Positions 20,900 to 45,668 of a stretch of 64,000 bases of DNA are shown here, piece by piece. The notes under the pieces were generated by a model. The model did not search any database and was not told the DNA's origin. It saw nothing but the letters and a program-made list of their open reading frames with translations. Position 1 is the stretch's first letter. Each line of letters opens with the position of its first letter. Both the position numbers and the translations under genes were made by a program. The stretch is from positions 54,497-118,496 of the forward strand of contig CAIOTF010000014.1 of the NCBI GenBank assembly GCA_903861125.1, read 5' to 3'. This DNA comes from an uncultured Ignavibacteriota bacterium. Its GTDB lineage: Bacteria > Bacteroidota > Ignavibacteria > UBA10030 > UBA8401.

Positions 20900-20901
20900 A
20901 T

Positions 20902-20932: not shown

Positions 20933-21070
20933 AGAATAAAGCAATCTGCAATTAAAAAGTTGTTCGCAAAAATTTGTATCGGAATCTAATGTATCGAACT
21001 TTTCTATGGCAGACTGCAATTGTTATTGAATTCTTTAACAATAATAATAAAATTTTGTTTGAGAGTCAAA

Positions 21071-22003: not shown

Positions 22004-22006
22004 AAT

Positions 22007-22822
22007 TTAAAAATCAATATTGAATCCAACGCCGGAATATGTATCACTGCGGTCATGATATTCCCCGTGGATGCTGTTGCCGGAATAATAGATGAAGAAA
22101 ACTTTTGTCCCTCGTCCGCTCCAGTTGCCCATCTTTGCTCCCGCTTGAAACTCGTGCCGTGGACGAAGTCCAGTCACCGTAAACTGATAGGCAGCATATC
22201 CATGAACCGAATCGAAAAGAGATTGATGATATTCACCTCCGAAATATTCGGCGAATTTCGGCAATGTAGTCGGATCGACATGCCAAAGATAGAGTGTGCC
22301 GAAATAGATTCGAAGAGAACTGACAGGTTCATAACTGACGGCAAGATCAAAAAATTCCCTGCTGTACACCCTTGGATGTATGCCATCTTTCCATAATCCT
22401 TGTGTACCGTCATAATGTCCGTCAACAAAGTGTGCGCTGATGTGGCTCAGTCGCAATCGTGATGAGAAGAGACCGCAATCCAGAGAATCAGCGTAATTGA
22501 TATTGAAACCGAAGAGATAATCCACAGCATCTACGGGAAAATGAAAATCCTTTTCTCCGCGAAGCAAGGTGAATGTAAAGAAATCTGATCCGATTGTAAG
22601 ATGCTTTCGGCTCTCCTGGAAAGTGTATTGAAATAAATCAACGGAATTGCCGATATCCAGTCTCAACCGGTTATCGTTTGCATGCCAGATCAGTCCCACG
22701 CGCGGTTCGAATGTTTGTGCTGTCAACGGTCTGAAAAGAAGAGGTCCGGATGCAAATGAGAAACCAGATTCCGCTGCAGATGTCAGTGAGACAAGAGAAA
22801 GAAGAAGAAAAATATGTTTCAT
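22007..22822 (-). CDS. Small outer-membrane beta-barrel protein (MipA/OmpV-like); hypothetical
   Basis: Signal peptide MKHIFLLLSLVSLTSA and the alternating pattern ending in ...GVGFNIDF with a C-terminal Phe. The start overlaps the stop of the upstream PHP gene by 1 nt (TAATG). Confidence 0.45.
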   Translation of the reverse strand: MKHIFLLLSLVSLTSAAESGFSFASGPLLFRPLTAQTFEPRVGLIWHANDNRLRLDIGNSVDLFQYTFQESRKHLTIGSDFFTFTLLRGEKDFHFPVDAVDYLFGFNINYADSLDCGLFSSRLRLSHISAHFVDGHYDGTQGLWKDGIHPRVYSREFFDLAVSYEPVSSLRIYFGTLYLWHVDPTTLPKFAEYFGGEYHQSLFDSVHGYAAYQFTVTGLRPRHEFQAGAKMGNWSGRGTKVFFIYYSGNSIHGEYHDRSDTYSGVGFNIDF

Positions 22823-24432: not shown

Positions 24433-25514
24433 TAGGATATCGCCGTTAAGAGATGATCAATGCGCTGACGTAGCACTGAATAATCATTGTGAAATTGTGT
24501 AAATCCGGAATATGAATTGAATTGCTCCATCGCACGCGTCAGTGAAAATTCTTTTTGTGATTCAAAATAGCAGATCTTTTGATCCTTCAGCCGCTGAGCC
24601 AAATATATCTGCTCAGTTTGCTGCGGGGTCGGAACAAAAACAGCATTGGCACCGAGATGTGACAGATCCATGATGGTGCTGTATCCCGGCCGTGAAATGA
24701 TGATATGTGATGCAGCAATTGCTTCCGACAATTCACCGGAAGTAAGGGAACCTATTAATGTGAGAGTGTCCGAGAGTTTCATCTTTAAGAATCTCTCCGG
24801 AGTGCCACGTACAACCAGCGCACGCAGTGTAGTCGTTTTTAGCTGATCCGTAATTAATGTTTCAAATAATGTTCGCTGAGGTTCCGGTCCGGAAAGAATC
24901 ACAAGAACATCGAGCTCTTTTTTTGTTGCGGCAATCCGCTTCAGACGTGAAAGGGGACCGATGAAAAAAGAATTTTGTGGAAGGACGGAATCGTGCGAAA
25001 GTTCTCCGCTGAGATTGTTCTCAGATTCGATATCAGGAATCCATACTTCGCTAAATGGCCTCATCAAATGTTTGTTTGCGTAATCAACAATCCCTTGTCC
25101 CCAGCGTAAATACGCGGAGAGTAGGATCCTGAGCTGATGCACCACGTATACTGATGGGACATTTACAGAATATGCACCCCAGCGGTTATCCGAAATAACG
25201 GCATCAATGCCATGGTCATTCACTATCTTTTCCAGTAATCGATGTTCATCGCCGATTCCTTTGAATAGTTTCGGCAGTTGACGGAACATCGTCCACGCCA
25301 TATTTGCGTTCACTGGATATTGTATCGCATACCCGGGATACCGGATATGCTCAAGGTCGGGGAATTCTTTTTTCAGCAATTCTGCCGGACGATTGTCGGC
25401 CGCGATTATGACCTCAGCCCCTTTCGCAATCAGTTCTTGGATGATCGGGATACACCTGGTAGCATGGCCAAGTCCCCAATCAAGCGGAGCGATCAGAATC
25501 CGTTTCTTCCTCAT
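24432..25514 (-). CDS. GT-B glycosyltransferase (GT1/GT28-like, MJ1255-type)
   Basis: N-terminal RILIAPLDWGLGHATRCIPIIQELIAKGAEVIIA is the nucleotide-sugar-binding Gly-rich loop of MurG/UGT-like enzymes. Confidence 0.55.
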   Translation of the reverse strand: MRKKRILIAPLDWGLGHATRCIPIIQELIAKGAEVIIAADNRPAELLKKEFPDLEHIRYPGYAIQYPVNANMAWTMFRQLPKLFKGIGDEHRLLEKIVNDHGIDAVISDNRWGAYSVNVPSVYVVHQLRILLSAYLRWGQGIVDYANKHLMRPFSEVWIPDIESENNLSGELSHDSVLPQNSFFIGPLSRLKRIAATKKELDVLVILSGPEPQRTLFETLITDQLKTTTLRALVVRGTPERFLKMKLSDTLTLIGSLTSGELSEAIAASHIIISRPGYSTIMDLSHLGANAVFVPTPQQTEQIYLAQRLKDQKICYFESQKEFSLTRAMEQFNSYSGFTQFHNDYSVLRQRIDHLLTAIS

Positions 25515-26164
25515 CGTATTGCTCCAAACGAGTATCCGCGCCGTTTGATTTCCGGTATCACACTATCAAGGATGTCAACGATCCGGCGTTGAGTGAGATC
25601 ATTATCATGATATACAAGGATTGCGCCATCCGAAAGATTTTTTAGCGAAACGCGTACGACCCGGTCATGTGTCCATTGCCGGAAATCGCCGGTCAGGCAG
25701 CTCCACATCACAAGAATGCAGCCAAGTTCACGTGCCGCTAAGATGGTCTTTCGGGAAAAAAATCCAAATGGCGGACGAAACAAACGTACATTTTGGTGGA
25801 TTATATCCGCGATGATTTTTTTCGTTTGGAGTATCTCTTCCTTAGTTTTTGTCTCGGATAATGCAAGCGATCGGGAATGATTGAATGCATGGATTCCGAT
25901 GGAATGGCCCTCATCTGCAATACGGCGGACAATCTCCTCGCGTCCCTGTATGTTTTTCCCGGAAAGAAAAAACGTTGCACGGACTTCATGTTTTTTCAAA
26001 AGATCCAGTACAGCTGGTGTTGCAGCAGTATGCGGTCCGTCATCGAACGTAAGGTACACTTTTTTGCCGGGCATTCGCCAGAGCAAAGAAGGAAAGAGTA
26101 TCTGATGTATAATGCCGGTATGCGAGATCATGCTGATTCTTTTTTTAACGTGCGCTCTTTCCAT
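25511..26164 (-). CDS. Polysaccharide deacetylase (CE4, NodB homology domain), cytoplasmic and NodB-sized
   Basis: Canonical motifs: YLTFDDGP (motif 1), HSIGIHAFNHS (H-x-x-x-H, motif 2), and VLVMWS/LVYHDND. 217 aa with no signal peptide. Confidence 0.8.
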   Translation of the reverse strand: MERAHVKKRISMISHTGIIHQILFPSLLWRMPGKKVYLTFDDGPHTAATPAVLDLLKKHEVRATFFLSGKNIQGREEIVRRIADEGHSIGIHAFNHSRSLALSETKTKEEILQTKKIIADIIHQNVRLFRPPFGFFSRKTILAARELGCILVMWSCLTGDFRQWTHDRVVRVSLKNLSDGAILVYHDNDLTQRRIVDILDSVIPEIKRRGYSFGAIR

Positions 26165-27279
26165 TCAAAAGAAAAAAAATATCCGCCGATAGTTGAAATA
26201 AGAACAAAGGGAATATGGATGATCGCCGTAACAATAAAATATTTCATCGCATCAGAGGTTTTTGTTATGGTTGCAAACCGATGCATAATCAGATAATCGG
26301 TCAAAAATTTTCCCGTCACGACGATCCAGGGGATGATATTCCATTCAACCAGTGTCAGTGGTAACGCTATCGTCAACGCAACGTACATAATAAATGTGCA
26401 GATCATAAAGAACATCATATACGGCGGATAATAAGCGGTCTGTCCGACCCAACGCATGCGCTGATGAAAAACTGCTTTCCATGTCATAACCGGATGCGTT
26501 GAAATAGCTGCATCATCATCGAAGGCAAACCGCGCCTTCCATTTTCCTGACGCTGCGATCTTTTGTGCGAGTAATGAATCATCCCCCGTATTAATGTGGG
26601 TCAACGCATCAAATCCATCTGCTTCATCGAATGCTTCAATACTGAATGCCATATTGCTTCCGTTGCTGACCAAAACCCGCTTCATCCCTATGGCGCCGGC
26701 AGCAATTGCCGTGTAGGAAATAAAATCCAGGAATTGAATTCCCCAAAACGGCGACGAGATACGGTCATCCTTTCCGTACTTTGTCAGTCCTGTAACGACT
26801 CCGACATTCTCTTCAAAATACGAATTGATCGCTGAAATCCAGCCGGGAGAGGCGATGCAATCTGCATCGGTGGTAATGATGATCTCGCTCGCAGAATGCT
26901 GGATCCCCAATGTCATCGCACGGATCTTCGGGGAACGTATCGTTGAGGTGATATCGGATTTCAAGAGTGTTATTGTTACGGTGGATCGTTGTGCAATTTC
27001 TTTTACTATTTCAGGGGTTCTGTCCGTTGATTGATCGTCGATAACGATGATCGCAAGTTTTTCTTTGGGATAATCCTGAATGAGCAGAGAGTTCAGGATG
27101 CGTTCAATATAATTCTCCTCGTTACGGGCCGGAATGATGACGGTAACGGAATGTTGAACCGTGTTTTTTCCTTTTGTCAATCGGGCGAGACCGCGAAAGA
27201 AGAATAGAATTTGGCGTACATACACTGCCAGCAGAAAAATCAAAAGAACGGAGGTATATTCAATGAATATCCTCATCAT
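26128..27279 (-). CDS. Membrane-embedded processive GT2 glycosyltransferase (NodC/PgaC/chitin-synthase-like)
   Basis: N-terminal TM segment, then VTVIIPARNEENYIERILNSLLIQDYP, a DD motif and QRMRW (the Q-x-x-R-W of processive beta-glycan synthases), with 3-4 C-terminal TM helices. Confidence 0.7.
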   Translation of the reverse strand: MMRIFIEYTSVLLIFLLAVYVRQILFFFRGLARLTKGKNTVQHSVTVIIPARNEENYIERILNSLLIQDYPKEKLAIIVIDDQSTDRTPEIVKEIAQRSTVTITLLKSDITSTIRSPKIRAMTLGIQHSASEIIITTDADCIASPGWISAINSYFEENVGVVTGLTKYGKDDRISSPFWGIQFLDFISYTAIAAGAIGMKRVLVSNGSNMAFSIEAFDEADGFDALTHINTGDDSLLAQKIAASGKWKARFAFDDDAAISTHPVMTWKAVFHQRMRWVGQTAYYPPYMMFFMICTFIMYVALTIALPLTLVEWNIIPWIVVTGKFLTDYLIMHRFATITKTSDAMKYFIVTAIIHIPFVLISTIGGYFFSFEWKERTLKKESA

Positions 27280-28220
27280 TTTCTTTTCAATTTTAAAACA
27301 AGTATCGCACCAATTGCCGTAGGAACAATGACATTTGCGAACGACATGATGATGGATGCATTGAATGCTACTGCCGCACTTGCGCCGACCTTCTCAAAAA
27401 AGAAAACCGCGGCACTTTCGCGGACGCCAAGATCGCCGAACGATATCGGCAGTATCACAGCCTTCACAAAAAAAACCGAGGCGGCACAGATCATCGTATC
27501 GGAGAGCGAAACATTCCCGAAAGCGGAAGCTAAAAAATAAAATTCGAACAAGATAACAGCATACAGCATTGAAGTTAAAACAAATAACACTCTCGCGTTG
27601 GAATTGTGAAATTCATCTTCAATCACCCGGAACATTTCATAAAACCGGTGTGCTCGTATTCTTTCCGGAAGCAATTGAAGAAAAATTTTCACCTTCTCAG
27701 GAAAAAGATACAGGATAGCGATTAAACTCAAGATAATAATGATGAAAATGGTGTAGTAAGGATTCCAATATTCAATAAAATAGTTTGAAACGAACATCAG
27801 CAAACCAACACCGCCAATAATAAATGTTAAAGCTGCCCAGTATAATTTGTCTACGATAGTTATGCCGATGATTTTTGCTTTATGTACATTTGGGTGACTC
27901 GCAATCCTTCCTGCAAATTCCCCCAATTGAGCAGGCGTGAAGAATCCTGCCATAAACCCTACAAACAATGATGTGAATACTTCATCGTTGGAAATATCCT
28001 TTGAAACAAGGCGGAGCAAATATCTCCAACGGTAAAAATGAACGATCAACTGAATTACCGCCAAAGCAAATCCAGCAGACAGGTAGAACGTATTTGCATG
28101 CTGGAATGATTGAACTACTGCACGAACATCAATGTAGTAGATCAAACCACCAAGCAGTATCGTTGAGACAAGAATTTTTGCAGCCGTTAATACGGCTGGA
28201 TGCGAAAAAAATGCTTTCAC
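27276..28220 (-). CDS. Flippase-like polytopic membrane protein (UPF0104 / lysyl-PG-synthase TM-domain family)
   Basis: About 8 predicted TM helices and no catalytic motifs. Such proteins are often found between GT2 genes. Confidence 0.5.
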   Translation of the reverse strand: MKAFFSHPAVLTAAKILVSTILLGGLIYYIDVRAVVQSFQHANTFYLSAGFALAVIQLIVHFYRWRYLLRLVSKDISNDEVFTSLFVGFMAGFFTPAQLGEFAGRIASHPNVHKAKIIGITIVDKLYWAALTFIIGGVGLLMFVSNYFIEYWNPYYTIFIIIILSLIAILYLFPEKVKIFLQLLPERIRAHRFYEMFRVIEDEFHNSNARVLFVLTSMLYAVILFEFYFLASAFGNVSLSDTMICAASVFFVKAVILPISFGDLGVRESAAVFFFEKVGASAAVAFNASIIMSFANVIVPTAIGAILVLKLKRK

Positions 28221-29320
28221 GTGTTGGCGGATCCTTTCCAGTCAAATTTCATAAGAACGCCAAGCGGAGCGATGCAAAAAGAATACAAGACCAGAAGAGT
28301 TTCATCTGCAGCGAATTCGGGGACGGAAAATTCTTCGCCTAATAATTTCTTGCCGTGTGAAATAAAAGCAGCATCCGCATTGAATTTAACCATCAAAGCA
28401 ATCAATGAGAAGAGTGGTGTAAAAAAAAATCCTGCGAACACAGCGAGGTGGAACAAATGGATCAGCGAATACATCAATTGAATTTTTTTCGGATAAAAAA
28501 TGCTTGCAGAGACATGCCGTGTGCGCTGGCTGACAAACTGTTTGAATGAAGCAGGTGGTACAGTACGGATATAGCTTTCAAGTGACGTCATATACCGGAT
28601 TTTCCACAGGGTCTTGCGCTGTACGAGCTGCAGGAACAAATCGTCATCTCCACTAATGGAATGTTTGATCTTTTCAAACCCGCCGACCTCTTCAAAAACT
28701 TCCCTGCGATATGCAAAATTTCTGCCTGTACACATAAATGCATTTTGCAGCCCGATCGCTGAAGCTGCAATCAACGAATTTTTAAATTCTTCGTACCGCA
28801 GGAAACTATTCGGCGCGGCAGGCATATACGGACTGTATCCGGCAACCACGCCAACATCGTTGGTAAAATTTTCTGAAATTTCATTCAACCAGTTTTTCGG
28901 TACAAGACAGTCAGCATCTGTGAATGCAAAAATGTTAAATTTGGATTGTGCGATGGCTGTGCGAAGTGCATTTTTTTTATGAGGCATGTCGCTGCTGTTC
29001 GATGTAATATTTATCGTCCGAACGTTACCATGCCGATGGGCGAATAATTCTGCTATTGATGCCGTCGAATCTGTCGATCGGTCGTTAACAACAAGAATTT
29101 CAAACTGTTCTGAAGGATATTTCTGCTCTACAAGCGATTGCAGCAGGGAGGAAATATTTTTTTCCTCATTCCTGGCCGCAACAATAACGGAAATTCCTTG
29201 ATGGCCATTGGTATGTTTCGGACTTGAAAGTCTTGTTAAGCCGAGCCACAATATGTAATGAATGCCAACATATACAGCACAGAGTGGGAGAAGGACCCAG
29301 AAATCAAATAGTTCAACCAT
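28217..29320 (-). CDS. Membrane-associated GT2 glycosyltransferase
   Basis: ISVIVAARNEEKNISSLLQSLVEQKYPSEQFEILVVNDRSTDST and a DxD region, flanked by TM segments. It is the first gene of the minus-strand operon. Confidence 0.7.
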   Translation of the reverse strand: MVELFDFWVLLPLCAVYVGIHYILWLGLTRLSSPKHTNGHQGISVIVAARNEEKNISSLLQSLVEQKYPSEQFEILVVNDRSTDSTASIAELFAHRHGNVRTINITSNSSDMPHKKNALRTAIAQSKFNIFAFTDADCLVPKNWLNEISENFTNDVGVVAGYSPYMPAAPNSFLRYEEFKNSLIAASAIGLQNAFMCTGRNFAYRREVFEEVGGFEKIKHSISGDDDLFLQLVQRKTLWKIRYMTSLESYIRTVPPASFKQFVSQRTRHVSASIFYPKKIQLMYSLIHLFHLAVFAGFFFTPLFSLIALMVKFNADAAFISHGKKLLGEEFSVPEFAADETLLVLYSFCIAPLGVLMKFDWKGSANT

Positions 29321-31538: not shown

Positions 31539-32654
31539 ATGATTATCGGGATTCCAAAAGAGATAAAAACAAATGAAAACCGTGTAGGATTTGTACCTGT
31601 CGGTGTCGAGACTCTGCGCCAATTCGGACACACCGTATTCGTCGAAACCAAAGCCGGAGTCGGCAGCGGTTTTGAAGATTCAGCATACATTGAAGCAGGT
31701 GCAAAGATCGCAAAGAATGCAAAGGAATTGTATCACAAAGCCGACATGATCATCAAAGTGAAAGAACCGATCAAACAGGAATATAACCTTATCCGCCGCG
31801 ATCAGATTGTTTTCACGTATTTCCATTTTGCTGCGAGCAAAGAATTGACCGTTGCAATGGTGAAATCGCAAGCTGTCTGTATTGCATACGAGACCGTACA
31901 GAAGGACGATGGTTCGCTGCCACTTCTTATTCCGATGAGTGAAGTTGCCGGACGTATGGCACCGCAGGAGGGAGCAAAATATCTTGAACGCACAATGGGC
32001 GGAAGAGGGATTTTACTCGGCGGAGTTCCTGGCACCGAACCTGCAAACGTAGTTGTTATCGGCGGTGGAATTGTCGGAACGCAGGCAGCAAAGATCGCCG
32101 CCGGTTTCGGCGCCAAGGTGACGATCCTTGACAATAATCTGTATCGTCTGCGACAGCTCGATGATTTTATGCCGAAGAACGTTACGACGATGATGAGCAA
32201 TGCATACAATATTCGTAAGATTATTCAAACTGCCGATCTCGTCATCGGTGCAGTGTTAATCCCTGGTGCTAAAGCGCCGAAACTGATCAAGAAAGAAATG
32301 TTGAAAACAATGAAGCCGGGCTCGGTGATTGTAGACGTTGCCGTAGATCAGGGCGGATGCATTGAAACATGTAAACCGACCACCCATGAGAATCCGACAT
32401 TTGTTATCGATAATGTGATCCACTACTGCGTGGCGAACATGCCGGGCGCAGTACCGTTCACATCAACGATCGCTTTGACAAATGCTACGCTGCCGTACGC
32501 AGTGGAACTGGCAAACAAAGGATGGGAAAAAGCGGTACAGCAGAATAAGGAATTGAAGCTCGGCTTGAATATGGTTGACGGTCTTATCACCTACAAAGGT
32601 GTGGCTGATGCGTTCAACATGAAATACACGCCGGTCGACACGATCCTCCGTTAA
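31539..32654 (+). CDS. ald: Alanine dehydrogenase
   Basis: MIIGIPKEIKTNENRVGFVPVGVETL... and the GGGIVGTQAAKIAAGFGAKVTILD Rossmann fold. 371 aa. Confidence 0.9.
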   Translation: MIIGIPKEIKTNENRVGFVPVGVETLRQFGHTVFVETKAGVGSGFEDSAYIEAGAKIAKNAKELYHKADMIIKVKEPIKQEYNLIRRDQIVFTYFHFAASKELTVAMVKSQAVCIAYETVQKDDGSLPLLIPMSEVAGRMAPQEGAKYLERTMGGRGILLGGVPGTEPANVVVIGGGIVGTQAAKIAAGFGAKVTILDNNLYRLRQLDDFMPKNVTTMMSNAYNIRKIIQTADLVIGAVLIPGAKAPKLIKKEMLKTMKPGSVIVDVAVDQGGCIETCKPTTHENPTFVIDNVIHYCVANMPGAVPFTSTIALTNATLPYAVELANKGWEKAVQQNKELKLGLNMVDGLITYKGVADAFNMKYTPVDTILR

Positions 32655-32666
32655 TATCCGATACAA

Positions 32667-32700
32667 AAACCTTCCGGAGAATCTCCGGAAGGTTTTTTAT
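32667..32700 (+). terminator. Intrinsic terminator after ald
   Basis: aaccttccggaga-at-ctccggaaggtt followed by a T-run. Confidence 0.55.
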
Positions 32701-32810
32701 TTTAAACAACCGGCAATTTTCCCCTTCCATTCTTGATTTTTTTTTGATACATTTGTTCAATGTTATATAAAGTAATTGTTTAACGCTCGACACAAATCTT
32801 TCTGATACCA

Positions 32811-34484
32811 ATGCCTAACGTAAAAATTACTCTTGACGGCGCTCAATACGAAGTAGATAATAAAAAGACGATCCTTGAAGCCGCGCGCGACAATAAGATC
32901 CATATCCCTCATTTTTGCTATCACGATAAACTTTCTGCATCCGGTAACTGCCGAATTTGTCTGGTCGAAGTCGAAAAAATGCCGAAACTTGCGATATCGT
33001 GCATGACGCAAGTAGCCGAAGGGATGATCATCAATACAAAGAATGAACGGGTCATTAATGCTCGCGAAGCAGTGATGGAATTCATTCTTATCAACCATCC
33101 ATTGGATTGTCCCATCTGCGACGAAGCAGGCGAATGCAAATTGCAGGATTACGCATACAAATACAGCAAAGGGTTTAGCAGATTTGTAGATACAAAGAAT
33201 CATAAAGAAAAACGCGTCGAGATCGGTCCGCGCGTGATGTTCGATGCAGAACGCTGCATATCATGCTCGCGATGCATCAGATTTTGCGATGAGATCGCCG
33301 GTGTTCATCAATTGCAATTTGTCAATCGCGGCGATAGAGTAACCATCCAAACATTCCCTGGCGAATCGCTGGATAATCCATATTCCATGAACGTGGTGGA
33401 TATCTGTCCTGTCGGTGCATTAACAAATAAAGATTTCCGTTTCAAATCGCGCGTATGGGAAATGTCATTTACCGATTCGGTCTGTCACGGTTGCGCACGG
33501 GGATGTAATATAGAGATCGGTGTGCGAAACAACGAAATTCTTCGTTTGAATCCGCGACGGAATGATGATGTGAACAGTGCATGGATGTGCGATCACGGCC
33601 GATTGAACACCTGGAAAAATGTAAACGCAGAGAATCGGATCAAATCTTCCAAAATCAGAAAAGAAGGTCAGTTGGTCGAAGTGGGTTGGGACGAAGCGAT
33701 CGCAAAAGCTGCGTCGGAATTGAAATCATTCGGTAAAAATGAGATCGCAGTGCTTGGTTCCGCTTTTGCCACTAACGAAGATAATTATGTCTTTGCTAAA
33801 TTTGCCCGTGAAGTTCTCGGCACCCGCAATATAGATTTCTGTCCTCATGTTGAAGGGACTGATGATGCCGTTCTTATTAGAGCTGATAAAACGCCGAACG
33901 CTTCCGGAGCAGAACTTGTAGGGATTGTTCCGCAAGAGAACGGAATGGATTTTCAGCAGATTATTTCCGCCATCAAAGCCGGAAAGATTAAAGCGTTGTA
34001 TTGTCTTGAAGATGACATTGCTTCAGTGCCTGGTATCGAAGATGCGTTATCGAATCTCGAATTTTTTGCCGTTCACGCGACCAATCACAGTAAAACAACA
34101 CAGTATGCTCATGTAGTTTTCGCAGCTTCAACCTATGCAGAAAAGAACGGTACCGTAACAAATTTCCAAAAACGTGTTCAGCGCGTTCGCCCTGCAGTGA
34201 CAACATTCGAGCAGGACCGGGCGTTGGATAATTTTGAAATGAGTCGTTGGGACAAATTTGCCGCACATAACGACAAATGGGGGAAAGGTCCCCGCCGTGA
34301 TGCACGTCCTTCATGGAAGATCATCACAAGTATTGCCGGTGTGATGGGAACGAAATATAAATTCAACAATGCCGACGATGTCTTCAATGAAATATGTCAA
34401 AAGATTGACGGTTTCAAAGGACTTTCATATTTAAAGGTGGGTGTAAAAGGTGCGGTTGTAAAACAAAATCATGTTGCAGTCTAA
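32811..34484 (+). CDS. nuoG: NADH-quinone oxidoreductase subunit G-like, short form (2Fe-2S and 4Fe-4S N-terminal domains, truncated molybdopterin domain)
   Basis: CYHDKLSASGNCRICLVEV, HPLDCPICDEAGECKLQD, CISCSRCIRFC. Only 557 aa. Confidence 0.8.
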   Translation: MPNVKITLDGAQYEVDNKKTILEAARDNKIHIPHFCYHDKLSASGNCRICLVEVEKMPKLAISCMTQVAEGMIINTKNERVINAREAVMEFILINHPLDCPICDEAGECKLQDYAYKYSKGFSRFVDTKNHKEKRVEIGPRVMFDAERCISCSRCIRFCDEIAGVHQLQFVNRGDRVTIQTFPGESLDNPYSMNVVDICPVGALTNKDFRFKSRVWEMSFTDSVCHGCARGCNIEIGVRNNEILRLNPRRNDDVNSAWMCDHGRLNTWKNVNAENRIKSSKIRKEGQLVEVGWDEAIAKAASELKSFGKNEIAVLGSAFATNEDNYVFAKFAREVLGTRNIDFCPHVEGTDDAVLIRADKTPNASGAELVGIVPQENGMDFQQIISAIKAGKIKALYCLEDDIASVPGIEDALSNLEFFAVHATNHSKTTQYAHVVFAASTYAEKNGTVTNFQKRVQRVRPAVTTFEQDRALDNFEMSRWDKFAAHNDKWGKGPRRDARPSWKIITSIAGVMGTKYKFNNADDVFNEICQKIDGFKGLSYLKVGVKGAVVKQNHVAV

Positions 34485-34500
34485 CCGATAGATTATAGTT

Positions 34501-35580
34501 ATGGAAATTTCACCAGTAATAGAAGCTCTTATTAAGATTATTGTAGTCATCTTTTTTATCCTTCTGCCGTGCGTTGCTTATCTCGGTGTTCAGTTGGAGA
34601 GAAAACTCAGCGCGTGGATCCAAAACAGGGTTGGTCCGAATCGTGTCGGTCCGTATGGACTGCTGCAGCCGCTTGCCGATATTCCGAAATTATTTTTCAA
34701 GGAAGATATTGTACCGGCTGCGGCGAATAAATTTGTTCATTCCCTCGGACCGCTCATTTCATTGACGATCGCATTTTCAACGTTTGCTGTTATGCCGTTC
34801 GGCGATACGCTACCTATTGTTGTCAATGGAGTGGTGCATAACATAAGTCTGCAAATTGCCAATGTAAATATCGGCGTGCTGTACGTTCTTGCACTTTCTT
34901 CACTTGCAGTGTACGGCATCACATTAAGCGGATGGTCGTCCAACAATAAATATTCTTTGCTCGGCGGTATTCGGTCTTCGGCGCAGATGATCAGTTATGA
35001 ACTTTCCCTTGGGTTATCGATTATCGGCATCGTGATGCTCAGCAACACGTTGCAGCTTAATGACATTGTAAAGGCGCAAAGTGGATATTATCTTTTTGGC
35101 TTTTTACCGAACTGGAATATCTTTGTGCAGCCGATCGGTTTCATCACCTTCTTTGTTGCGATGTTTGCGGAGACGAACCGTCTACCGTTCGATCTGCCCG
35201 AAGCAGAGCCGGAACTAGTTGCCGGATACCATACGGAATACACCGGAATGAAATTTGGAATGTTCATGCTTTCCGAATTCCTTGCTATGTTCGCGGCTGC
35301 AGGCATGATTACCACATTGTATCTTGGCGGCTGGCAGGCACCATATATTGAATATCTCAATCTGTCGCCGTTCGTTGTGAGTCTTGTTCAAGTTGGTGCA
35401 TTCTTCACGAAGTTTGCACTTATCGTAGTGTTCTTCATGATCGTCCGATGGTCCATGCCGAGGTTCCGCTATGATCAACTGATGAACATCGGATGGAAAG
35501 TGATGATTCCGCTCTCACTCCTGAACATCGCTCTTACTGGATTGTTTATTCTTAAACCTATTCACACTTGGTTCAATTAA
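34501..35580 (+). CDS. nuoH: NADH-quinone oxidoreductase subunit H
   Basis: QNRVGPNRVGPYGLLQPLADIPKLFFKED and an 8-TM profile. Confidence 0.9.
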   Translation: MEISPVIEALIKIIVVIFFILLPCVAYLGVQLERKLSAWIQNRVGPNRVGPYGLLQPLADIPKLFFKEDIVPAAANKFVHSLGPLISLTIAFSTFAVMPFGDTLPIVVNGVVHNISLQIANVNIGVLYVLALSSLAVYGITLSGWSSNNKYSLLGGIRSSAQMISYELSLGLSIIGIVMLSNTLQLNDIVKAQSGYYLFGFLPNWNIFVQPIGFITFFVAMFAETNRLPFDLPEAEPELVAGYHTEYTGMKFGMFMLSEFLAMFAAAGMITTLYLGGWQAPYIEYLNLSPFVVSLVQVGAFFTKFALIVVFFMIVRWSMPRFRYDQLMNIGWKVMIPLSLLNIALTGLFILKPIHTWFN

Positions 35581-35581
35581 T

Positions 35582-36097
35582 ATGAACGACGATAAACTAT
35601 TAGCAAAAAGTGAAGTGATCCGCGTAAAAGACCTTACGTTTTTACAACGGGCGTACGTCTTTGAGATTCTCAAAGGTATGTTCAAAGCGGCCAGACAGAT
35701 ATTCCAGCCATCATTCACGATAGAATATCCCGAAGTGAGATCAGAACGTGCAGCGTCGTTCCGCGGACGCCCTGTTCTTGTTGAAGAGAACGGCGTTGAG
35801 CGTTGTGTTGCGTGCGGATTATGCGCAAGGGTATGTCCGGCATTGGCGATTGAAGTGCAGGCGGCTCCTACGGAACTTGCGAAAGAACGATATCCCGAAA
35901 AATTTGAAATTAATATGACGCGCTGTATCTTCTGCGGATTCTGCGAAGAAGTTTGCCCTGAAGAAGCGATTATTATGAGCAATGAGTATGAACTTGCATT
36001 CTCCAGTCAGCAGGAATCGATCTTTGGCAAAGACAAACTGCTGAAATCGGCTGAAATAATGAAACCGCGGCTTGATTTTTTGCGCGATCACCGATGA
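35582..36097 (+). CDS. nuoI: NADH-quinone oxidoreductase subunit I (2x[4Fe-4S])
   Basis: CVACGLCARVCP and CIFCGFCEEVCP. Confidence 0.85.
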   Translation: MNDDKLLAKSEVIRVKDLTFLQRAYVFEILKGMFKAARQIFQPSFTIEYPEVRSERAASFRGRPVLVEENGVERCVACGLCARVCPALAIEVQAAPTELAKERYPEKFEINMTRCIFCGFCEEVCPEEAIIMSNEYELAFSSQQESIFGKDKLLKSAEIMKPRLDFLRDHR

Positions 36098-36203
36098 CCT
36101 CATAAGCAAATCGAATTATTTTGGAACTTTACAATGCGCTGGATATATTATCGGCGCATTGAAGTTTTAAACAAATTCAGTCATACTTCCGCAATAATAA
36201 AGG

Positions 36204-37775
36204 ATGTTCATCGTTGCAAGTCTTGCGCAAAGAACAGTTATGCTAACCACAGTATTTTCCGCAGCAACATACGGCATCAACGCCTACCTTATTGAAATCG
36301 AAACGAACATAGAAAACACTGTTCCAAATTTTTTCCTAGTCGGACTTCCGGACAATGCGGTGAAGGAATCGCGGGAACGTGTAGCAACTGCAATAAAGAA
36401 TTCTGCATACACATATCCGAATAAAAGAATCACCATTAATCTTGCACCAGCAGATGTAAAAAAGGAAGGCTCTGCATTCGATCTGCCGATTGCCATTGGT
36501 ATGCTGGGATCCAGCGGTCAGGTAAGAGAGGATCGGCTGAAAGAATTCATTATTCTTGGCGAACTTTCTTTGGAAGGAACTTTGAGACCAATCCACGGTG
36601 CGCTGCCTATTGCGGTAGAGATGAAGAAAAAAGGTATTCGCGGTGTTATTCTGCCGAAGCAGAACGCAAATGAAGCGGCGATGGTGGAAGGGATAGATGT
36701 GTATGGTGTTGAGACAATGACCGATGCTGTAGAGGTCCTTGAGGGAAAATCGGAGATCGAACCGCTGCGGCTCGATCTCCGAAAAGTATTTGCTGTGGAA
36801 CAAAAGTATCATCAGGATTTTTCCGACGTAAAAGGGCAGGAGAATGTGAAACGGGCGCTGGAAGTGGCTGCTGCAGGTGGCCACAATATTATTATGATTG
36901 GTCCTCCGGGATCAGGAAAGACAATGCTTGCACGCCGGTTGCCGAGCATCCTTCCACCAATGACATTTGAAGAAAGTATAGAGACGACGAAAATCCATTC
37001 TGTTTCCGGTTTACTCCCGCCCGGTTCGGCGCTTGTTGTGCAGCGTCCGTTCCGCTCTCCGCATCATACGATTTCCGATTCCGCACTTGTCGGCGGCGGT
37101 ACAATTCCTCGCCCCGGCGAGATATCTCTTTCACATCATGGCGTTTTGTTTTTGGATGAGCTTCCCGAATTTGCACGCAATGTGCTGGAAGTGATGCGCC
37201 AGCCGCTGGAAGATGGGAAAGTAACGATCAGCCGTTCAAAGATGTCGGTGGATTATCCGGCAAATTTCATGCTCGTTTGCGCTATGAATCCTTGTCCCTG
37301 TGGAAATTATGGGAATCCAAATCATGAATGTACATGTACGCCGATGATGATCCAGAAATATATGGCAAAGATCTCCGGTCCATTGCTCGACAGGATCGAT
37401 ATCCATATTGAAGTTCCTGCAGTGAAAGTGGTAGAACTCGCACAGAAGAAACAGGGAGAACCGTCGTAACACGTGCGAGATAGAGTGATGCATGCAAGAG
37501 AATTACAACTGAAACGGTTTACGGTACAGAAAAATCTCTTTTCCAATGCCGCAATGCAGTCAAAAGAAATACGTGAATTTTGCAGGATCGATCCGGCAGG
37601 TGAGGAATTGCTGAAAATGGCAATGACCAAACTCGGATTATCAGCTCGAGCATATGACAGGATCCTTAAAGTTTCACGAACGATCGCTGATCTTTCTGGC
37701 AGTGCAGAGATAGGGACAGAACATTTAAGCGAAGCGATCCAATATCGAAGTTTAGACAGGAATTTGTGGGTATAA
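36204..37775 (+). pseudogene. comM: YifB/ComM-family Mg-chelatase-like AAA+ ATPase reading frame interrupted by one in-frame TAA at 37467-37469 (421 aa N-terminal part plus 100 aa C-terminal part in the same frame)
   Basis: N-terminal Lon-like domain; P-loop GPPGSGKT; C-terminal Mg_chelatase_C-like LSARAYDRILKVSRTIADLSG. The ORF-track coordinates 36204 and 37473 differ by 1269, which is 3 x 423, so the two parts are in the same frame. Confidence 0.6.
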
Positions 37776-37988
37776 AGTTAGCAAAAAACCTTGCTTGGTT
37801 ATGAAAATTAGCTCTTACCTTGACAAAGGATTCCCTTCCGAAGTGATAAAACAATTGTAACAAAAGCATATTCTCGCTACATTCGTTGTAACTTCATTTC
37901 AATATTTTCGTAAACTCATCCCGCTATCGTGCTATTACTCTTAATCAATTTTTCATTGCTGCATATTCACAATCTTCAAGGAGATGAT

Positions 37989-40772
37989 ATGAAGACATTC
38001 GGTCTATTCCTTCTGGCTGCGGTTATTTCACTTTCACAGGTGAAAGCACAGACCAAAAGTATGGTTGCAGACATTAACATCCCGTACGAAAAATTCACAC
38101 TTGATAACGGTCTAACCGTGCTAGTCCACGAGGACCATAAGGCGCCTATCGTGGCTGTTAACGTATGGTATCACGTCGGATCAAAAAATGAAAAACCCGG
38201 CAGGACCGGATTTGCACATCTCTTTGAACATTTAATGTTCAACGGCTCTGAGAATTTTGATACGGACTATTTCCAAGCTTTGGAACGGATCGGTGCAACG
38301 GATCTAAACGGAACAACAAGTAATGACAGAACAAATTATTTCCAGAATGTTCCTACGCCTGCACTGGATATTGTTCTTTGGATGGAGTCTGACCGAATGG
38401 GACATTTGACCGGTGCTATCAGTCAGGCAAAACTTGATGAACAAAGGGGAGTAGTGCAGAATGAAAAACGGCAAGGCGATAATCAACCGTATTCTATCGC
38501 TGAAGAACTAACCACCAAAGCGACATATCCTGCCGGACATCCATATTCATGGACGGTGATCGGTTCACTGGAAGATCTGAATGCAGCGTCATTGGATGAT
38601 GTGAAAGAATGGTTCCGCAATTACTACGGCACAGCAAACGCAGTGATAGTTCTTGCCGGCGATATTGACCTGAAAACGGCAAAAGAAAAAATGCAGAAAT
38701 ATTTTGGCGATATACCTTCCGGTCCTCCGGTTGCTAAATATGATGAAAATGTTGCCAAGAGAACGGGAACAATTCGCCAACGTGCAGAAGACCGTGTTCC
38801 GCAAGCCCGATTCTTCAAAGTATGGAATACTCCAAAATATGCTTCGGCAGAAAATACATATCTCGATTTATTCGCAGATATTCTCGCATCAGGGAAAACA
38901 TCCAGATTATATAAACGCCTGGTGTATGACGAACAAATAGCGACAAATGTTTCTGCTTATGTTGACTCACGGGAGATCGGAAGTCAATTTAATATTGATG
39001 CAACGGCAAAACCTGGTGTGGATCTAGCAAAAATTGAAAAAGCGATTAACGAAGAAATGAAATTGCTGCTTGAAAAAGGACCCACCGAAAAAGAATTGCA
39101 GCGGGTGAAAACTCAATCCATCGCAGGATTTGTTCGCGGCATTGAACGCATCGGAGGATTCGGCGGAAAATCAGACATCCTTGCGAATTCGGAAGTCTTT
39201 GCCGGTTCACCGGATTATTATAAAACATATTTAAGCAATCTTAATGAAGCAACGGTTCAGAATATTGTCGCAACGGCAAATAAATGGCTAACCGATGGTG
39301 ATTACATTCTTGAAATTCACCCATTCCCTCAATTCAAGAACGATCAAACAGATTCTACCGTTCGGAAATCAATGCCGAAGATGGCAGCAGCAGCCGAAGC
39401 AAAATTTCCGAAGATTGAAAGAACAACCCTTTCAAACGGACTGAAAGTTATCCTTACCGAACGTTCTTCAGTTCCCGTAGTAAATTTTTCATTGCAAGTT
39501 GATGCCGGTTTTGCAGCAGATCAATTCTCAATTCCCGGCACGGCAAATTTAGCAATGGATGTTCTTGATGAAGGGACAAAAACCCGCAGTGCATTAGCTA
39601 TAAGCGAAGAACTTGCCCTTCTTGGTGCCAATCTTAATTCCGGATCAAATCTGGATAATTCGTCGGTTCGAATGTCGTCTTTGAAGGCAAATCTTGATGC
39701 GTCATTGAACATATTCGCCGATGTTATTCTGAATCCTTCTTTCCCGGATGAGGACTATAAACGATTACAGAAACAAAAGATCGCCGGGATTCAGCGTGAG
39801 AAAGTCACTCCAATCCAAATGGCGCTTCGTGTATTTCCGAAGATTCTCTATGGAACGGAACATGCGTACGGAAATCCTTTAACTGGTTCCGGCACGGAAC
39901 TGACGATGGCGAGCATTAAGCGCGATGACCTTATTAAATTTCATAAGACATGGTTCAAACCAAACAATGCAACATTAATTGTTGTCGGTGCAACGACGAT
40001 GAATGAAATTAAACCGAAACTTGAAAAATTATTTAAGGATTGGAAGTCGGGTGATGTTCCCAAAAAGAATATTGCGAAAGTGGAACAGCAATCGAAATCA
40101 ACTGTTTATATTGTCGATAAGCCCGGTTCGCAGCAGTCAATAATATTTGCAGGACACGTTTCGCTTCCCAAATCAAATCCGGATGAACTTGCCATTACCA
40201 TGATGAATGACGCTTTGGGTGGCGCTTTTACATCACGCGTTAATATGAATCTTCGGGAAGATAAACATTGGTCATATGGTGCCAGCACATTGTTCTATGC
40301 TGCCCGCGGACAGCGTCCGTTTTTAACATATGCGTCGGTGCAGACCGATAAGACAAAAGAATCAATGGTTGAAGTTGTAAAAGAGCTTAAAGAAGTTACT
40401 ACTACCCGACTGATAACGAAGGAAGAATTTGAAAAAGTTCAAAAAAATGCTGTGCTTGAGCTTTCAGGTTCGTGGGAAACAAACAATGCAGTTCTTGGTT
40501 CGCTGGCAGACATGGTATCGTATGGCTATGCGGATGATTATTACAGTACATATTCAAAAAAATTGAATGAACTAAGCTATGAGGAAGTGAAAAATTCCGC
40601 CGGAAAAGCGATTCATCCTGATAATCTTGTATGGGTTATTGTCGGCGACAAGGAAAAGATCGAGCAGGGGATTAAGGATTTGAATTATGGAGCAGTAAAA
40701 TACCTTGATGCTGATGGTAATGACGTGAATCAGCTTCAGCAAAAGGATCAGCCGATAGAAAAAAAGAAATAA
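37989..40772 (+). CDS. Secreted two-module M16 family zinc peptidase (PqqL-like)
   Basis: aaggag Shine-Dalgarno 7 nt upstream of the ATG at 37989. Signal peptide MKTFGLFLLAAVISLSQVKAQ. HxxEH motif (FAHLFEHLMFNGSENF). A second inactive M16 module follows. The ORF-track start at 37929 is probably too early. Confidence 0.8.
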   Translation: MKTFGLFLLAAVISLSQVKAQTKSMVADINIPYEKFTLDNGLTVLVHEDHKAPIVAVNVWYHVGSKNEKPGRTGFAHLFEHLMFNGSENFDTDYFQALERIGATDLNGTTSNDRTNYFQNVPTPALDIVLWMESDRMGHLTGAISQAKLDEQRGVVQNEKRQGDNQPYSIAEELTTKATYPAGHPYSWTVIGSLEDLNAASLDDVKEWFRNYYGTANAVIVLAGDIDLKTAKEKMQKYFGDIPSGPPVAKYDENVAKRTGTIRQRAEDRVPQARFFKVWNTPKYASAENTYLDLFADILASGKTSRLYKRLVYDEQIATNVSAYVDSREIGSQFNIDATAKPGVDLAKIEKAINEEMKLLLEKGPTEKELQRVKTQSIAGFVRGIERIGGFGGKSDILANSEVFAGSPDYYKTYLSNLNEATVQNIVATANKWLTDGDYILEIHPFPQFKNDQTDSTVRKSMPKMAAAAEAKFPKIERTTLSNGLKVILTERSSVPVVNFSLQVDAGFAADQFSIPGTANLAMDVLDEGTKTRSALAISEELALLGANLNSGSNLDNSSVRMSSLKANLDASLNIFADVILNPSFPDEDYKRLQKQKIAGIQREKVTPIQMALRVFPKILYGTEHAYGNPLTGSGTELTMASIKRDDLIKFHKTWFKPNNATLIVVGATTMNEIKPKLEKLFKDWKSGDVPKKNIAKVEQQSKSTVYIVDKPGSQQSIIFAGHVSLPKSNPDELAITMMNDALGGAFTSRVNMNLREDKHWSYGASTLFYAARGQRPFLTYASVQTDKTKESMVEVVKELKEVTTTRLITKEEFEKVQKNAVLELSGSWETNNAVLGSLADMVSYGYADDYYSTYSKKLNELSYEEVKNSAGKAIHPDNLVWVIVGDKEKIEQGIKDLNYGAVKYLDADGNDVNQLQQKDQPIEKKK

Positions 40773-42623: not shown

Positions 42624-42761
42624 TATTGTCCCTATGATCGTATGCAGAGTATAACGTAAAGATTAAAAAATATCAATCATGAAAAATAAATAAATCTGCC
42701 TACTTGACAAATGAACTCTATTTGCTATATTATATACAGTTCTTTTACAGCAATTATTGCA

Positions 42762-42873
42762 TTCATCAAGAGTGGACGAGGGACTGACCTGAAGACTCCA
42801 CAGCAACCGGCGATTCACACAGCGTCGTGCAGGTGCTAATTTCAGATTCTCTGCAAAGAGAACAACGATGAAC
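42762..42873 (+). promoter_or_regulatory. SAM-I (S-box) riboswitch aptamer
   Basis: ttcatcaagagtggacgagggactgacctgaagactccacagcaaccgg...gtgctaatttcagattctctgcaaagagaacaacgatgaa matches the S-box consensus (P1 uucauc/gaugaa, the AGAGNGGNGGAGGGACUGGCCCNAUGAAGCC core, the GCAACC pseudoknot element). It lies upstream of metY-metX. Confidence 0.8.
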
Positions 42874-42895
42874 TAAAAGTCTGAGCTTTTATATA

Positions 42896-43099: not shown

Positions 43100-44482
<1,383 letters not shown>

Positions 44483-44528: not shown

Positions 44529-45668
44529 GTGACGGTATTTTATCGACTTATCATGACAAAACATACAATAGTAAAAACGAACTTCGTTCAGTTATTTGAC
44601 GCAATAGATCCGTTACACATGGATTGCGGTGATTCTTTTTCTCCGGTGACTGTTGCATATGAAACGTACGGAACCTTGAATAAAGCAGGTGACAACGCCA
44701 TCGTTGTCTGCCATGCGCTTACGGGAAGTGCTCATGCTGCCGGATATTCGTCGGAAGATCCAAAATCGATCGGATGGTGGGACTCATTCATCGGTGAAGG
44801 TAAACCGCTTGATACAAAAAAATATTTCGTTATATGTTCAAATTTTCTCGGCGGATGTTATGGCACGACCGGTTCAAAATCTGTTGATCCGGCAACCGGA
44901 AAACCTTACGGATTAACATTCCCCCAAATGACGGTTCGGGATATGGTTCGGGTGCAAAAAAAGCTCGTCACATATCTTGGAGTTAATAAAATAAAAACAG
45001 TCATCGGCGGTTCGCTGGGAGGTATGCAGGTACTCGAGTGGGCCGTTTTGTTTCCAGACTTCGTTCAATCAATCATTCCGATTGCAACCTCGGTGCAGCA
45101 TTCACCGTGGGCGATCGGTTTGAACAATCTCTCGCGTCTTGCCATTATGAATGACCCTGACTGGAAAGATGGAAATTATTATGGATTTCCTCAACCGGAG
45201 AAAGGATTTTCACTCGCCAGGCAAATTGCGATGATCTCTTATCGAAGCGAAAAAGAATTTACACAACGTTTTTCCCGAGATCGTATTGTGAATGAAATTG
45301 ACTCATCGAATCGTTTTGATACGTCGAATATTTTCCAAGTGGAACGGTATCTTCACTATCAGGGAACAAAACTTGTTAATCGCTTTGATGCTAACACATA
45401 CATCTATATTTCAAGAGCTATGGATATTCATGATCTTGCATACGGCAGGGGAACCGTCCACGATGTATTGGGTTCTATATCAATTCCTGCACTCTGTATC
45501 GGTATAGATTCAGATATTCTCTATCCTGCAACAGAACAGCAAAGGATGGCTTCATTGCTGCCGAATTCAACATACCGGGAGATTTCATCGCCATATGGAC
45601 ACGATGCATTTCTCATCGAATTTGACCAAATGGAGGCACATGCAAGGAATTTTCTGTCAATAGTGTAA
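44529..45668 (+). CDS. metX: Homoserine O-acetyltransferase
   Basis: Alpha/beta hydrolase with the nucleophile elbow GGSLGGMQVLEW and an N-terminal MetX-type region. The start may be the internal Met at about 44556. Confidence 0.85.
   Translation: MTVFYRLIMTKHTIVKTNFVQLFDAIDPLHMDCGDSFSPVTVAYETYGTLNKAGDNAIVVCHALTGSAHAAGYSSEDPKSIGWWDSFIGEGKPLDTKKYFVICSNFLGGCYGTTGSKSVDPATGKPYGLTFPQMTVRDMVRVQKKLVTYLGVNKIKTVIGGSLGGMQVLEWAVLFPDFVQSIIPIATSVQHSPWAIGLNNLSRLAIMNDPDWKDGNYYGFPQPEKGFSLARQIAMISYRSEKEFTQRFSRDRIVNEIDSSNRFDTSNIFQVERYLHYQGTKLVNRFDANTYIYISRAMDIHDLAYGRGTVHDVLGSISIPALCIGIDSDILYPATEQQRMASLLPNSTYREISSPYGHDAFLIEFDQMEAHARNFLSIV

What the first reader, a model, noticed from the sequence alone, without database searches (positions are those of the whole stretch)
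37440..37500. Conserved yifB/comM reading frame broken by a single in-frame TAA
ORFs 36204-37469 and 37473-37775 are in the same frame (start difference 1269 = 3 x 423). They are separated only by the TAA at 37467-37469 and one codon. Together they rebuild a complete Mg-chelatase-like ATPase, ...KKQGEPS-stop-HVRDRVMHARELQLKRF..., and the break falls where the family has a conserved linker. The sequence is otherwise intact with no frameshift. Candidate explanations are a very recent nonsense mutation (a nascent pseudogene), a sequencing or assembly base error, or stop-codon readthrough or a split two-part protein. TAA is used as an ordinary stop elsewhere in this window, so code reassignment is unlikely.
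Basis: seen in the sequence. Interest (0 to 1): 0.5.

Follow-up and report, generated by a model that had tools for sequence, protein, structure and literature searches.

The report
Recent nonsense mutation in comM/yifB
A single real point mutation (most likely CAA to TAA) cuts short the DNA-recombination helicase gene comM/yifB in one clonal strain of an uncultured bacterium, while rare sister contigs keep the intact gene; this is an ordinary young loss-of-function allele.

Summary
A TAA at 37467-37469 lies in frame inside an otherwise perfect yifB/comM gene (36240-37775). The two pieces match the YifB profile colinearly, with only the stop and one codon between them.

It is not an assembly error. 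The exact 421-aa truncated product occurs on 41 contigs made by independent pipelines. Ten contigs I fetched, from different runs and samples, are 99.97-100% identical to the window.

Two other contigs encode the full-length protein. One is identical to the window protein except for Gln at the stop position. All 119 full-length relatives of about 70-97% identity that I checked carry a sense codon there, and 17 different residues occur at that site.

TAA is the commonest stop in the window and also ends this gene. No other gene in the window is split, no RNA structure follows the stop, and the window holds no tRNA.

The stop sits at the start of the C-terminal helical domain. That domain carries an invariant arginine (codon 37647-37649), which aligns with the trans-acting arginine finger R463 of Legionella ComM. 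The truncated product should therefore be catalytically defective.

Verdict: a very recent, strain-level nonsense allele, segregating in a natural population. It is ordinary.

The parts
36240..37466 (+). N-terminal 409 codons of yifB/comM. The mechanical ORF starts at ATG 36204. Contains the Lon-like ChlI domain (about 36297-36665) and the AAA+ Mg_chelatase core (about 36816-37430).
   Evidence: Pfam PF13541 6.6e-47 and PF01078 3.2e-100. TIGR00368 563 bits over profile positions 1-405. Homologues start at MLTTV.
36900..36923 (+). Walker A motif GPPGSGKT, intact.
   Evidence: Read from the sequence. These columns are invariant in 51 homologues. They align with Walker A residues 218-225 of L. 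pneumophila ComM (PMC11612176).
37146..37160 (+). Walker B region LFLDE, intact.
   Evidence: Read from the sequence. L315 to E319 are invariant.
37467..37469 (+). Premature TAA, codon 422 counted from ATG 36204. The intact allele has Gln here, so the change is inferred to be CAA to TAA, a C-to-T transition at 37467.
   Evidence: P0124 and P0001 have ...GEPSQHVRDRV.... CAA is a common Gln codon in this window: 299 CAA against 322 CAG.
37470..37772 (+). The 101 codons of the C-terminal helical (lid) domain, now downstream of the stop and still undamaged.
   Evidence: Pfam PF13335 8.8e-34. TIGR00368 profile positions 408-499. Identical in amino-acid sequence to the intact allele P0124.
37473..37475 (+). 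In-frame GTG 3 nt after the stop. A possible restart codon, hypothetical only.
   Evidence: The nearest GGAG (37455-37458) lies 14 nt upstream, which is poor spacing.
37488..37490 (+). In-frame ATG 18 nt after the stop. Gene callers start a 95-aa ORF here on 12 contigs (P0122).
37647..37649 (+). CGA codon for the invariant arginine R482 of the intact protein, in the motif LSARAYDR. It aligns with R463, the trans-acting arginine finger of L. pneumophila ComM. The truncated product lacks it.
   Evidence: Alignment to 8rxd. PMC11612176 states that R463 of the neighbouring subunit coordinates the gamma-phosphate. Invariant in 51 homologues.
37773..37775 (+). Natural TAA stop of yifB/comM.
   Evidence: Homologues end at the same residue...DRNLWV or ...DRNLWM. 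TAA is therefore read as stop in this same gene.

Best explanation
This is a genuine, very recent nonsense mutation in the yifB/comM gene of one clonal strain of an uncultured bacterium of the Bacteroidota/Ignavibacteria group. The change is most likely CAA (Gln) to TAA at 37467. The sample names suggest that the strain comes from oxygen-stratified freshwater lakes. Translation ends after residue 421 (409 if counted from the likely true start). The product keeps the Lon-like N-domain and the AAA+ core with Walker A and Walker B. It lacks the whole C-terminal helical domain, including the invariant arginine that reaches into the neighbouring subunit's ATP site in the ComM hexamer. The truncated protein is therefore predicted to be defective in ATP hydrolysis and DNA branch migration, making this a loss-of-function or strongly hypomorphic allele. 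What is shown: the stop, its reality, its restriction to one strain, the existence of the intact allele, and the location of the missing residues. What is inferred: the ancestral codon, the loss of activity, and the phenotype. The expected phenotype is reduced integration of heterologous transforming DNA, if this organism is competent at all.
For: (1) The gene is colinear across the stop and is clearly YifB/ComM: TIGR00368 and three Pfam domains, L. pneumophila ComM 8rxd at E = 2e-125, and fold match TM 0.72-0.77. (2) The base call is real. The exact 421-aa product is on 41 contigs from NCBI, Logan and ENA, and the index lists it in 67 blocks. Ten fetched contigs from different runs and biosamples (L001, L082-L090) are identical to the window over 3.6-11 kb, or differ by a single base elsewhere; all carry the TAA-truncated gene. 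(3) Intact alleles exist. P0124 is identical apart from Gln at the site. P0001 has Gln plus one other substitution. Both sit in the same gene neighbourhood. (4) The stop is derived. All 119 full-length relatives checked have a sense codon, with 17 different residues; the nearest ones have E, Y, T and S. (5) The mutation is recent. No amino-acid change has occurred in the 101 downstream codons relative to the intact allele. (6) There is no recoding. TAA ends 30 of 53 ORFs and ends this gene too, and TAAC ends 5 other ORFs. No other gene in the window is split. (7) The missing part matters. The C piece holds many invariant residues, including R482, which equals Lp ComM R463. A C-terminal GFP fusion inactivates V. 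cholerae ComM (PMC6158740).
Against: No reads, transcripts or proteins were available, so loss of function is inferred rather than measured. DNA of the intact allele could not be fetched, so CAA as the ancestral codon is inferred. The stop allele far outnumbers the intact allele, 42 contigs against 2. That would be unexpected for a strongly deleterious mutation and leaves room for neutrality, hitch-hiking or some retained function. In-frame GTG and ATG codons lie 3 and 18 nt after the stop, so some C-terminal fragment might be made.
Confidence: 0.85

Rival explanations
1. Functional two-piece ComM. After terminating at TAA, ribosomes restart at GTG 37473 or ATG 37488. The 95-100-aa helical domain then re-associates with the 409-aa body to give an active split AAA+ helicase.
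For: Start codons lie 3 and 18 nt after the stop. The break is at a domain boundary, at the N-cap of the first helix of the C-terminal domain and after a 7-residue loop. The downstream piece is undamaged. The allele is common in the sampled population. This organism seldom uses Shine-Dalgarno sites, so the lack of one says little.
Against: No relative has this arrangement; all 119 are single polypeptides. Zero divergence since the mutation means the intact downstream piece is explained by youth alone. No good ribosome-binding site is present: GGAG lies 14 nt from the GTG. One stop-allele contig carries a further G305V change at an invariant glycine, which hints at relaxed constraint, though this is a single case. 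No reassembly of a split AAA+ core and lid has been shown for this family.
Confidence: 0.08
2. Low-level or programmed readthrough or suppression of the TAA restores full-length protein.
For: The near-cognate tRNA-Gln would restore the ancestral residue. The site tolerates 17 different residues, so any insertion would probably work.
Against: The stop is not conserved in any relative. The RNA around and after the stop folds no better than shuffled controls, z = -0.75. TAAC is an ordinary terminator here, ending 5 other ORFs. The window holds no tRNA, suppressor or otherwise. From general knowledge, UAA is the least leaky stop in bacteria.
Confidence: 0.03
3. Sequencing or assembly error: the true base at 37467 is C.
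For: A single-base difference from an otherwise identical full-length allele.
Against: The same base appears in contigs assembled independently from several runs and biosamples by at least three pipelines. The truncated product is on 41 contigs. The intact allele is assembled in other samples of the same accession series, so the pipelines can call either allele.
Confidence: 0.02
4. Genetic-code change, with TAA read as Gln in this organism.
For: The intact allele has Gln, the residue that UAA encodes in some reassigned codes.
Against: TAA ends 30 of 53 ORFs, including this gene at exactly the homologues' C-terminus. Genes are tightly packed and none of the others is split.
Confidence: 0.01

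Closest known systems
ComM of Legionella pneumophila (PDB 8rxd, 8rxk, 8rxs, 8rxt) and of Vibrio cholerae and Acinetobacter baylyi: a hexameric AAA+ branch-migration helicase of natural transformation
   Same: The same three-domain architecture: Lon-like ChlI domain, Mg_chelatase AAA+ core, Mg_chelatase_C. Sequence match E = 2e-125, about 40% identity, TM 0.72-0.77. Walker A, Walker B, the sensor arginines and the arginine-finger equivalent are all encoded.
   Different: Here the reading frame is cut by TAA before the C-terminal domain. Competence of this uncultured organism is unknown, and the activity was not tested.
Natural inactivation of comM in Acinetobacter baumannii (AbaR and Tn7-like islands, IS elements, defence islands), Aggregatibacter actinomycetemcomitans and Pasteurellaceae
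   Same: The same gene is recurrently knocked out in natural populations while intact alleles persist in the species. In A. baumannii the result is lower transformation with heterologous DNA (PMC11472951; PMC11441513, listed).
   Different: Those cases are mostly insertions of mobile elements. Here it is a single nonsense substitution, and no mobile element lies nearby: the neighbours are nuoG/H/I, an M16 peptidase and a TrkA-type channel.
Ordinary nascent pseudogenes: a single premature stop in an otherwise intact bacterial gene
   Same: One derived stop, no secondary decay, restricted to one strain, intact allele in sister genomes.
   Different: Nothing notable, except that the broken allele is the majority form among the available contigs.

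Membership tests
YifB/ComM family Mg-chelatase-like AAA+ ATPase (TIGR00368) | Score above the curated family cut-off | tested here: met
   The N piece alone scores 563.1 bits against a cut-off of 362.4. The C piece adds 104 bits on profile positions 408-499.
YifB/ComM family Mg-chelatase-like AAA+ ATPase (TIGR00368) | Three domains in the order ChlI (PF13541), Mg_chelatase (PF01078), Mg_chelatase_C (PF13335) in one polypeptide | tested here: not met
   All three domains are encoded in order and in frame, but the TAA separates PF13335 from the rest. The intact allele P0124 has all three in one chain. At the DNA level this is a member gene; its primary product is a truncated member.
YifB/ComM family Mg-chelatase-like AAA+ ATPase (TIGR00368) | Walker A, Walker B and a trans-acting arginine | tested here: met
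   All are present in the DNA: GPPGSGKT at 36900-36923, LFLDE at 37146-37160, and R482 at 37647-37649, which lies downstream of the stop.
YifB/ComM family Mg-chelatase-like AAA+ ATPase (TIGR00368) | ComM-like fold | tested here: met
   The AlphaFold model of the intact allele has mean pLDDT 68 and is poor for residues 258-363. Its best PDB match is 8rxd_A at E = 9.5e-37, TM 0.72/0.77.
YifB/ComM family Mg-chelatase-like AAA+ ATPase (TIGR00368) | ATP-dependent hexamerisation, helicase and branch-migration activity, and a role in transformation | not testable with these tools
   Needs biochemistry or genetics.
Nascent pseudogene (nonsense allele) | Premature stop relative to orthologues, with an intact allele in conspecific genomes | tested here: met
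   All 119 relatives have a sense codon. P0124 is identical apart from Gln at the site.
Nascent pseudogene (nonsense allele) | Loss of function or expression | not testable with these tools
   Inferred only, from loss of the conserved C-terminal domain and of the R463 equivalent.
Programmed stop-codon readthrough or recoding | The stop is conserved among related lineages | tested here: not met
   The stop is found only in the one clonal strain. Relatives at 97%, 92%, 91% and 90% identity have E, T, Y and S.
Programmed stop-codon readthrough or recoding | A stimulatory RNA element or special stop context | tested here: not met
   Fold z-score -0.75 for 37430-37560. TAAC is used as a normal terminator 5 times in the window.
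Stable split gene (two independently translated subunits) | The split is conserved in relatives | tested here: not met
   All listed homologues are single chains of about 511 aa.
Stable split gene (two independently translated subunits) | The downstream piece has its own translation start | tested here: inconclusive
   A GTG at +3 and an ATG at +18 exist, with no well-spaced SD. SD use is rare in this window anyway.
Stop-codon reassignment (TAA = sense) | TAA is absent as a terminator and common inside genes | tested here: not met
   TAA ends 30 of 53 ORFs, and no other gene is broken.

The most novel reading that the evidence does not exclude
The broken allele is not simply decay. It is the dominant form in a natural lake population because it is tolerated or favoured. 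One possibility is that loss of ComM-dependent branch migration is selected, for example because it limits recombination with divergent DNA or protects resident mobile elements, as proposed for comM disruption in Acinetobacter. The other is that the two pieces are both made, by termination and reinitiation at GTG 37473 or ATG 37488, and reassemble into a working split AAA+ helicase.
Probability: 0.1. Interest if true: 0.45.

Novelty: already known. Interest (0 to 1): 0.15.

Why it matters
It matters little beyond annotation. The gene should be annotated as one yifB/comM pseudogene or nonsense allele, not as two genes; gene callers currently emit a 421-aa protein and a 95-aa protein. It adds one environmental example, outside the Proteobacteria, to the known pattern that comM is repeatedly inactivated within species while intact alleles persist. 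Both alleles appear to exist in one metagenome series. The site could therefore serve as a natural marker for tracking a strain sweep, or for asking whether loss of ComM changes recombination in the wild. That is a modest population-genetic use, not a new mechanism.

Tried and rejected
(1) I scanned genome contigs and metagenome contigs for an exact 47-mer spanning the site, with N at 37467. Neither scan gave a match, so no additional alleles came from those collections.

(2) The search for related loci with the intact protein returned only relatives of 87% identity or less in genome contigs, and 67% or less in metagenome contigs. This helped place the organism among uncultured Bacteroidota/Ignavibacteria-type MAGs, but not to see close alleles.

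(3) DNA for the intact alleles P0001 and P0124 and for the 97% relative P0002 was not available ('no file'). The ancestral codon is therefore inferred rather than read.

(4) The RNA fold around the stop showed nothing beyond shuffled controls.

(5) The tRNA scan of the window found none.

(6) The promoter and terminator scan of 35900-38100 gave counts no higher than shuffled sequence and no internal promoter before the C piece.

(7) The Shine-Dalgarno survey found few SD motifs anywhere, so it is uninformative for the restart question.

(8) Code reassignment was rejected on stop-codon usage.

(9) I did not search for naturally split YifB proteins in distant lineages. Full-length hits would swamp the capped output.

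(10) The link between the samples and Buck et al. 2021 (PRJEB38681) rests on the record label 'BUCK21-1' and on the accession ranges. The accessions themselves were not found in the paper's text.

Full report
**What is in the sequence**

Reading 36000-38000 and listing ORFs confirms the finding exactly. A 421-aa ORF (36204-37469) ends in TAA at 37467-37469. It is followed by one codon (CAC) and then an in-frame 100-aa ORF (37473-37775). The translation across the break reads ...[29 protein letters not shown]...

The NCBIfam model TIGR00368 (YifB family Mg chelatase-like AAA ATPase) matches the first piece on profile positions 1-405 (563 bits, cut-off 362.4). It matches the second piece on positions 408-499. 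The two ORFs are therefore one colinear gene with no indel.

Pfam places the ChlI/Lon-like domain and the Mg_chelatase AAA+ core in the first piece. Mg_chelatase_C falls in the second piece. Homologues are 511-513 aa and begin MLTTV, so the true start is probably ATG 36240.

**Is the stop real?**

The exact 421-aa truncated product is present in the public protein collection on 41 contigs from NCBI, Logan and ENA. The position index lists it in 67 blocks.

I fetched ten such contigs: L001, L082-L089 and L090. They come from different runs and biosamples and from different assemblers:
- ERR4195025, ERR4193653 and ERR4195111;
- BUCK21-1_SAMEA6872864, -815, -809 and -820;
- ERZ27313192, ERZ27313193 and ERZ27313194.

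Eight are 100% identical to the window over 3.6-11 kb, and two differ at a single base elsewhere. All carry the TAA-truncated gene. An assembly or sequencing artefact is therefore excluded for practical purposes. The organism behaves as one clone seen in many samples.

The 'BUCK21-1' label and the accession ranges suggest the oxygen-stratified lake metagenomes of Buck et al. 2021 (PMC8121793, PRJEB38681). I could not verify the accession mapping, so this remains an inference.

**Is the stop ancestral or derived?**

The same 90%-identity cluster holds two full-length proteins. P0124 (523 aa) is identical to the window's conceptual product at every residue, except that Gln occupies the stop position. 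P0001 has the same Gln plus one other substitution. Both lie in the same neighbourhood of M16 peptidase, alanine dehydrogenase, nuoG, nuoH, nuoI and yifB.

The next relatives, at 97, 92, 91 and 90% identity, have E, T, Y and S at the site. Among 119 full-length homologues the site takes 17 different residues (S 29, A 23, D 14, E 11... Q 3) and is never a stop.

The stop is therefore derived and confined to one strain. It is most simply a CAA-to-TAA transition. CAA is a common Gln codon in this window, 299 against 322 CAG. The DNA of the intact allele was unavailable, so the ancestral codon is inferred.

The 101 downstream codons are unchanged relative to the intact allele, so the mutation is very young.

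**Alternatives based on decoding**

- TAA ends 30 of the 53 large ORFs in the window. It also ends yifB itself, exactly where the homologues end.
- TAAC, the context of the internal stop, terminates five other ORFs.
- No other gene pair in the window has the signature of a split gene.
- The window holds no tRNA.
- The RNA from 37430 to 37560 folds no better than shuffled controls, z = -0.75.
- Promoter-like and terminator-like matches in 35900-38100 are at background level, and none lies before the C piece.

Code reassignment and programmed readthrough therefore have no support.

**What the truncation removes**

An AlphaFold model of the intact allele has mean pLDDT 68. The C-terminal 100 residues are well predicted (pLDDT 77-92), while residues 258-363 are poor. 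The model shows a loop at 414-420 and a helix at 421-438. Residue 422, the stop, is thus the N-cap of the first helix of the C-terminal helical bundle.

This agrees with the Pfam boundaries: Mg_chelatase ends at 409 and Mg_chelatase_C starts at 418. The codon itself is variable, not conserved. It is flanked by invariant S421 and R425.

The model's best PDB match is Legionella pneumophila ComM (8rxd_A, E = 9.5e-37, TM 0.72/0.77). The sequence match to that chain is E = 2e-125.

[quoted passage not shown] R316 and R463 ('arginine finger') of the neighbouring subunit also contribute (PMC11612176). Counting through the alignment, Lp R463 is the R of LSARGYHR. It aligns with the R of LSARAYDR here, which is residue 482 of the intact protein (codon 37647-37649) and is invariant in 51 homologues. 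That residue lies downstream of the stop.

In V. cholerae a C-terminal GFP fusion already inactivates ComM (PMC6158740).

The 409/421-aa product keeps Walker A (36900-36923) and Walker B (37146-37160) but lacks a trans-acting catalytic arginine and the whole lid domain. I infer that it cannot sustain ATP-driven branch migration.

**Could the gene still work as two pieces?**

A GTG lies 3 nt after the stop and an ATG 18 nt after it. Gene callers emit a 95-aa ORF from the ATG on 12 contigs. Restart after termination is conceivable.

Lack of a well-spaced Shine-Dalgarno site says little, because this window shows few SD motifs in general. The nearest GGAG lies 14 nt before the GTG.

Against the idea:
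- No relative has the split.
- The intactness of the C piece is fully explained by the youth of the mutation.
- One stop-allele contig (L090) differs from the window at a single base in 5.5 kb. That base changes invariant Gly305 of YifB to Val. This hints at relaxed constraint, but it is one case and could be an assembly error.

I give this reading about 8%.

**Comparison with what is known**

[quoted passage not shown] Its loss lowers transformation with heterologous linear DNA about 100-fold without affecting DNA uptake or repair (PMC6158740).

comM is also a gene that natural populations repeatedly inactivate. About 22% of A. baumannii strains have it disrupted, mostly by AbaR/Tn7-like islands, IS elements or defence islands. 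Inactivation has also been reported in A. actinomycetemcomitans and in Pasteurellaceae (PMC11472951).

The present case is the same outcome by the simplest route, a point nonsense mutation, in an uncultured Bacteroidota/Ignavibacteria-type organism. The nearest named relatives are MAGs labelled Bacteroidota. The nearest GTDB species representative is 87% identical, and the next is an Ignavibacteriaceae MAG at 66%.

Nothing mobile lies nearby. The neighbours are housekeeping genes.

**Verdict**

Sequencing error, a stable split gene shared with relatives, programmed readthrough and code change are rejected or unsupported.

The one mildly notable point is that the broken allele is the majority form among available contigs, 42 against 2. 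This fits a clonal expansion in which loss of ComM is neutral or tolerated. Many of those contigs are re-assemblies of overlapping samples, so the ratio is not a population frequency.

Interest is low, and the kind of feature is already known.

Noticed in passing
window 37117 (L090, position equivalent): One contig carrying the stop allele (BUCK21-1_SAMEA6872820 scaffold_4958) differs from the window at a single base in 5.5 kb. The change is G to T at 37117, which turns the invariant Gly305 of YifB into Val. It is either a second hit in the already broken gene or an assembly error.
   Followed up: partly
window 42760-42874 (+): SAM riboswitch (RF00162, 64.5 bits, E = 1e-12). It lies upstream of a Cys/Met-metabolism PLP enzyme (43139-44482) and an alpha/beta hydrolase (44529-45668). 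This looks like an ordinary methionine-biosynthesis leader.
   Followed up: partly
window 2061-5702 (+): A 1213-aa ORF with no Pfam or NCBIfam match. It lies directly downstream (7-nt gap) of a TonB-dependent-receptor-like ORF (71-2053).
   Followed up: no
window 9341-29320: A long, tightly packed run of genes, mostly on the minus strand. The part I annotated (9341-15680) includes heptosyltransferase-like and glycosyltransferase genes, consistent with an LPS or polysaccharide biosynthesis cluster. ORFs beyond 15.7 kb were not annotated.
   Followed up: partly
window 31539-36097: nuoG-, nuoH- and nuoI-like genes follow an alanine dehydrogenase and end directly before yifB. No nuoJ-N follows, because an M16 peptidase comes next. 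The complex I genes seem to be split over more than one locus.
   Followed up: no
window 38252 (L086): The only other SNP among the fetched contigs is G to A at 38252, inside the 947-aa M16 peptidase gene. The population is otherwise clonal over the roughly 11 kb compared.
   Followed up: no
whole window: Few Shine-Dalgarno-like motifs lie upstream of ORF starts: about 9 of 49 have a GGAG, GAGG or AGGA core within 25 nt. This is consistent with a Bacteroidota-type translation-initiation style. GC content is 43.4%.
   Followed up: partly
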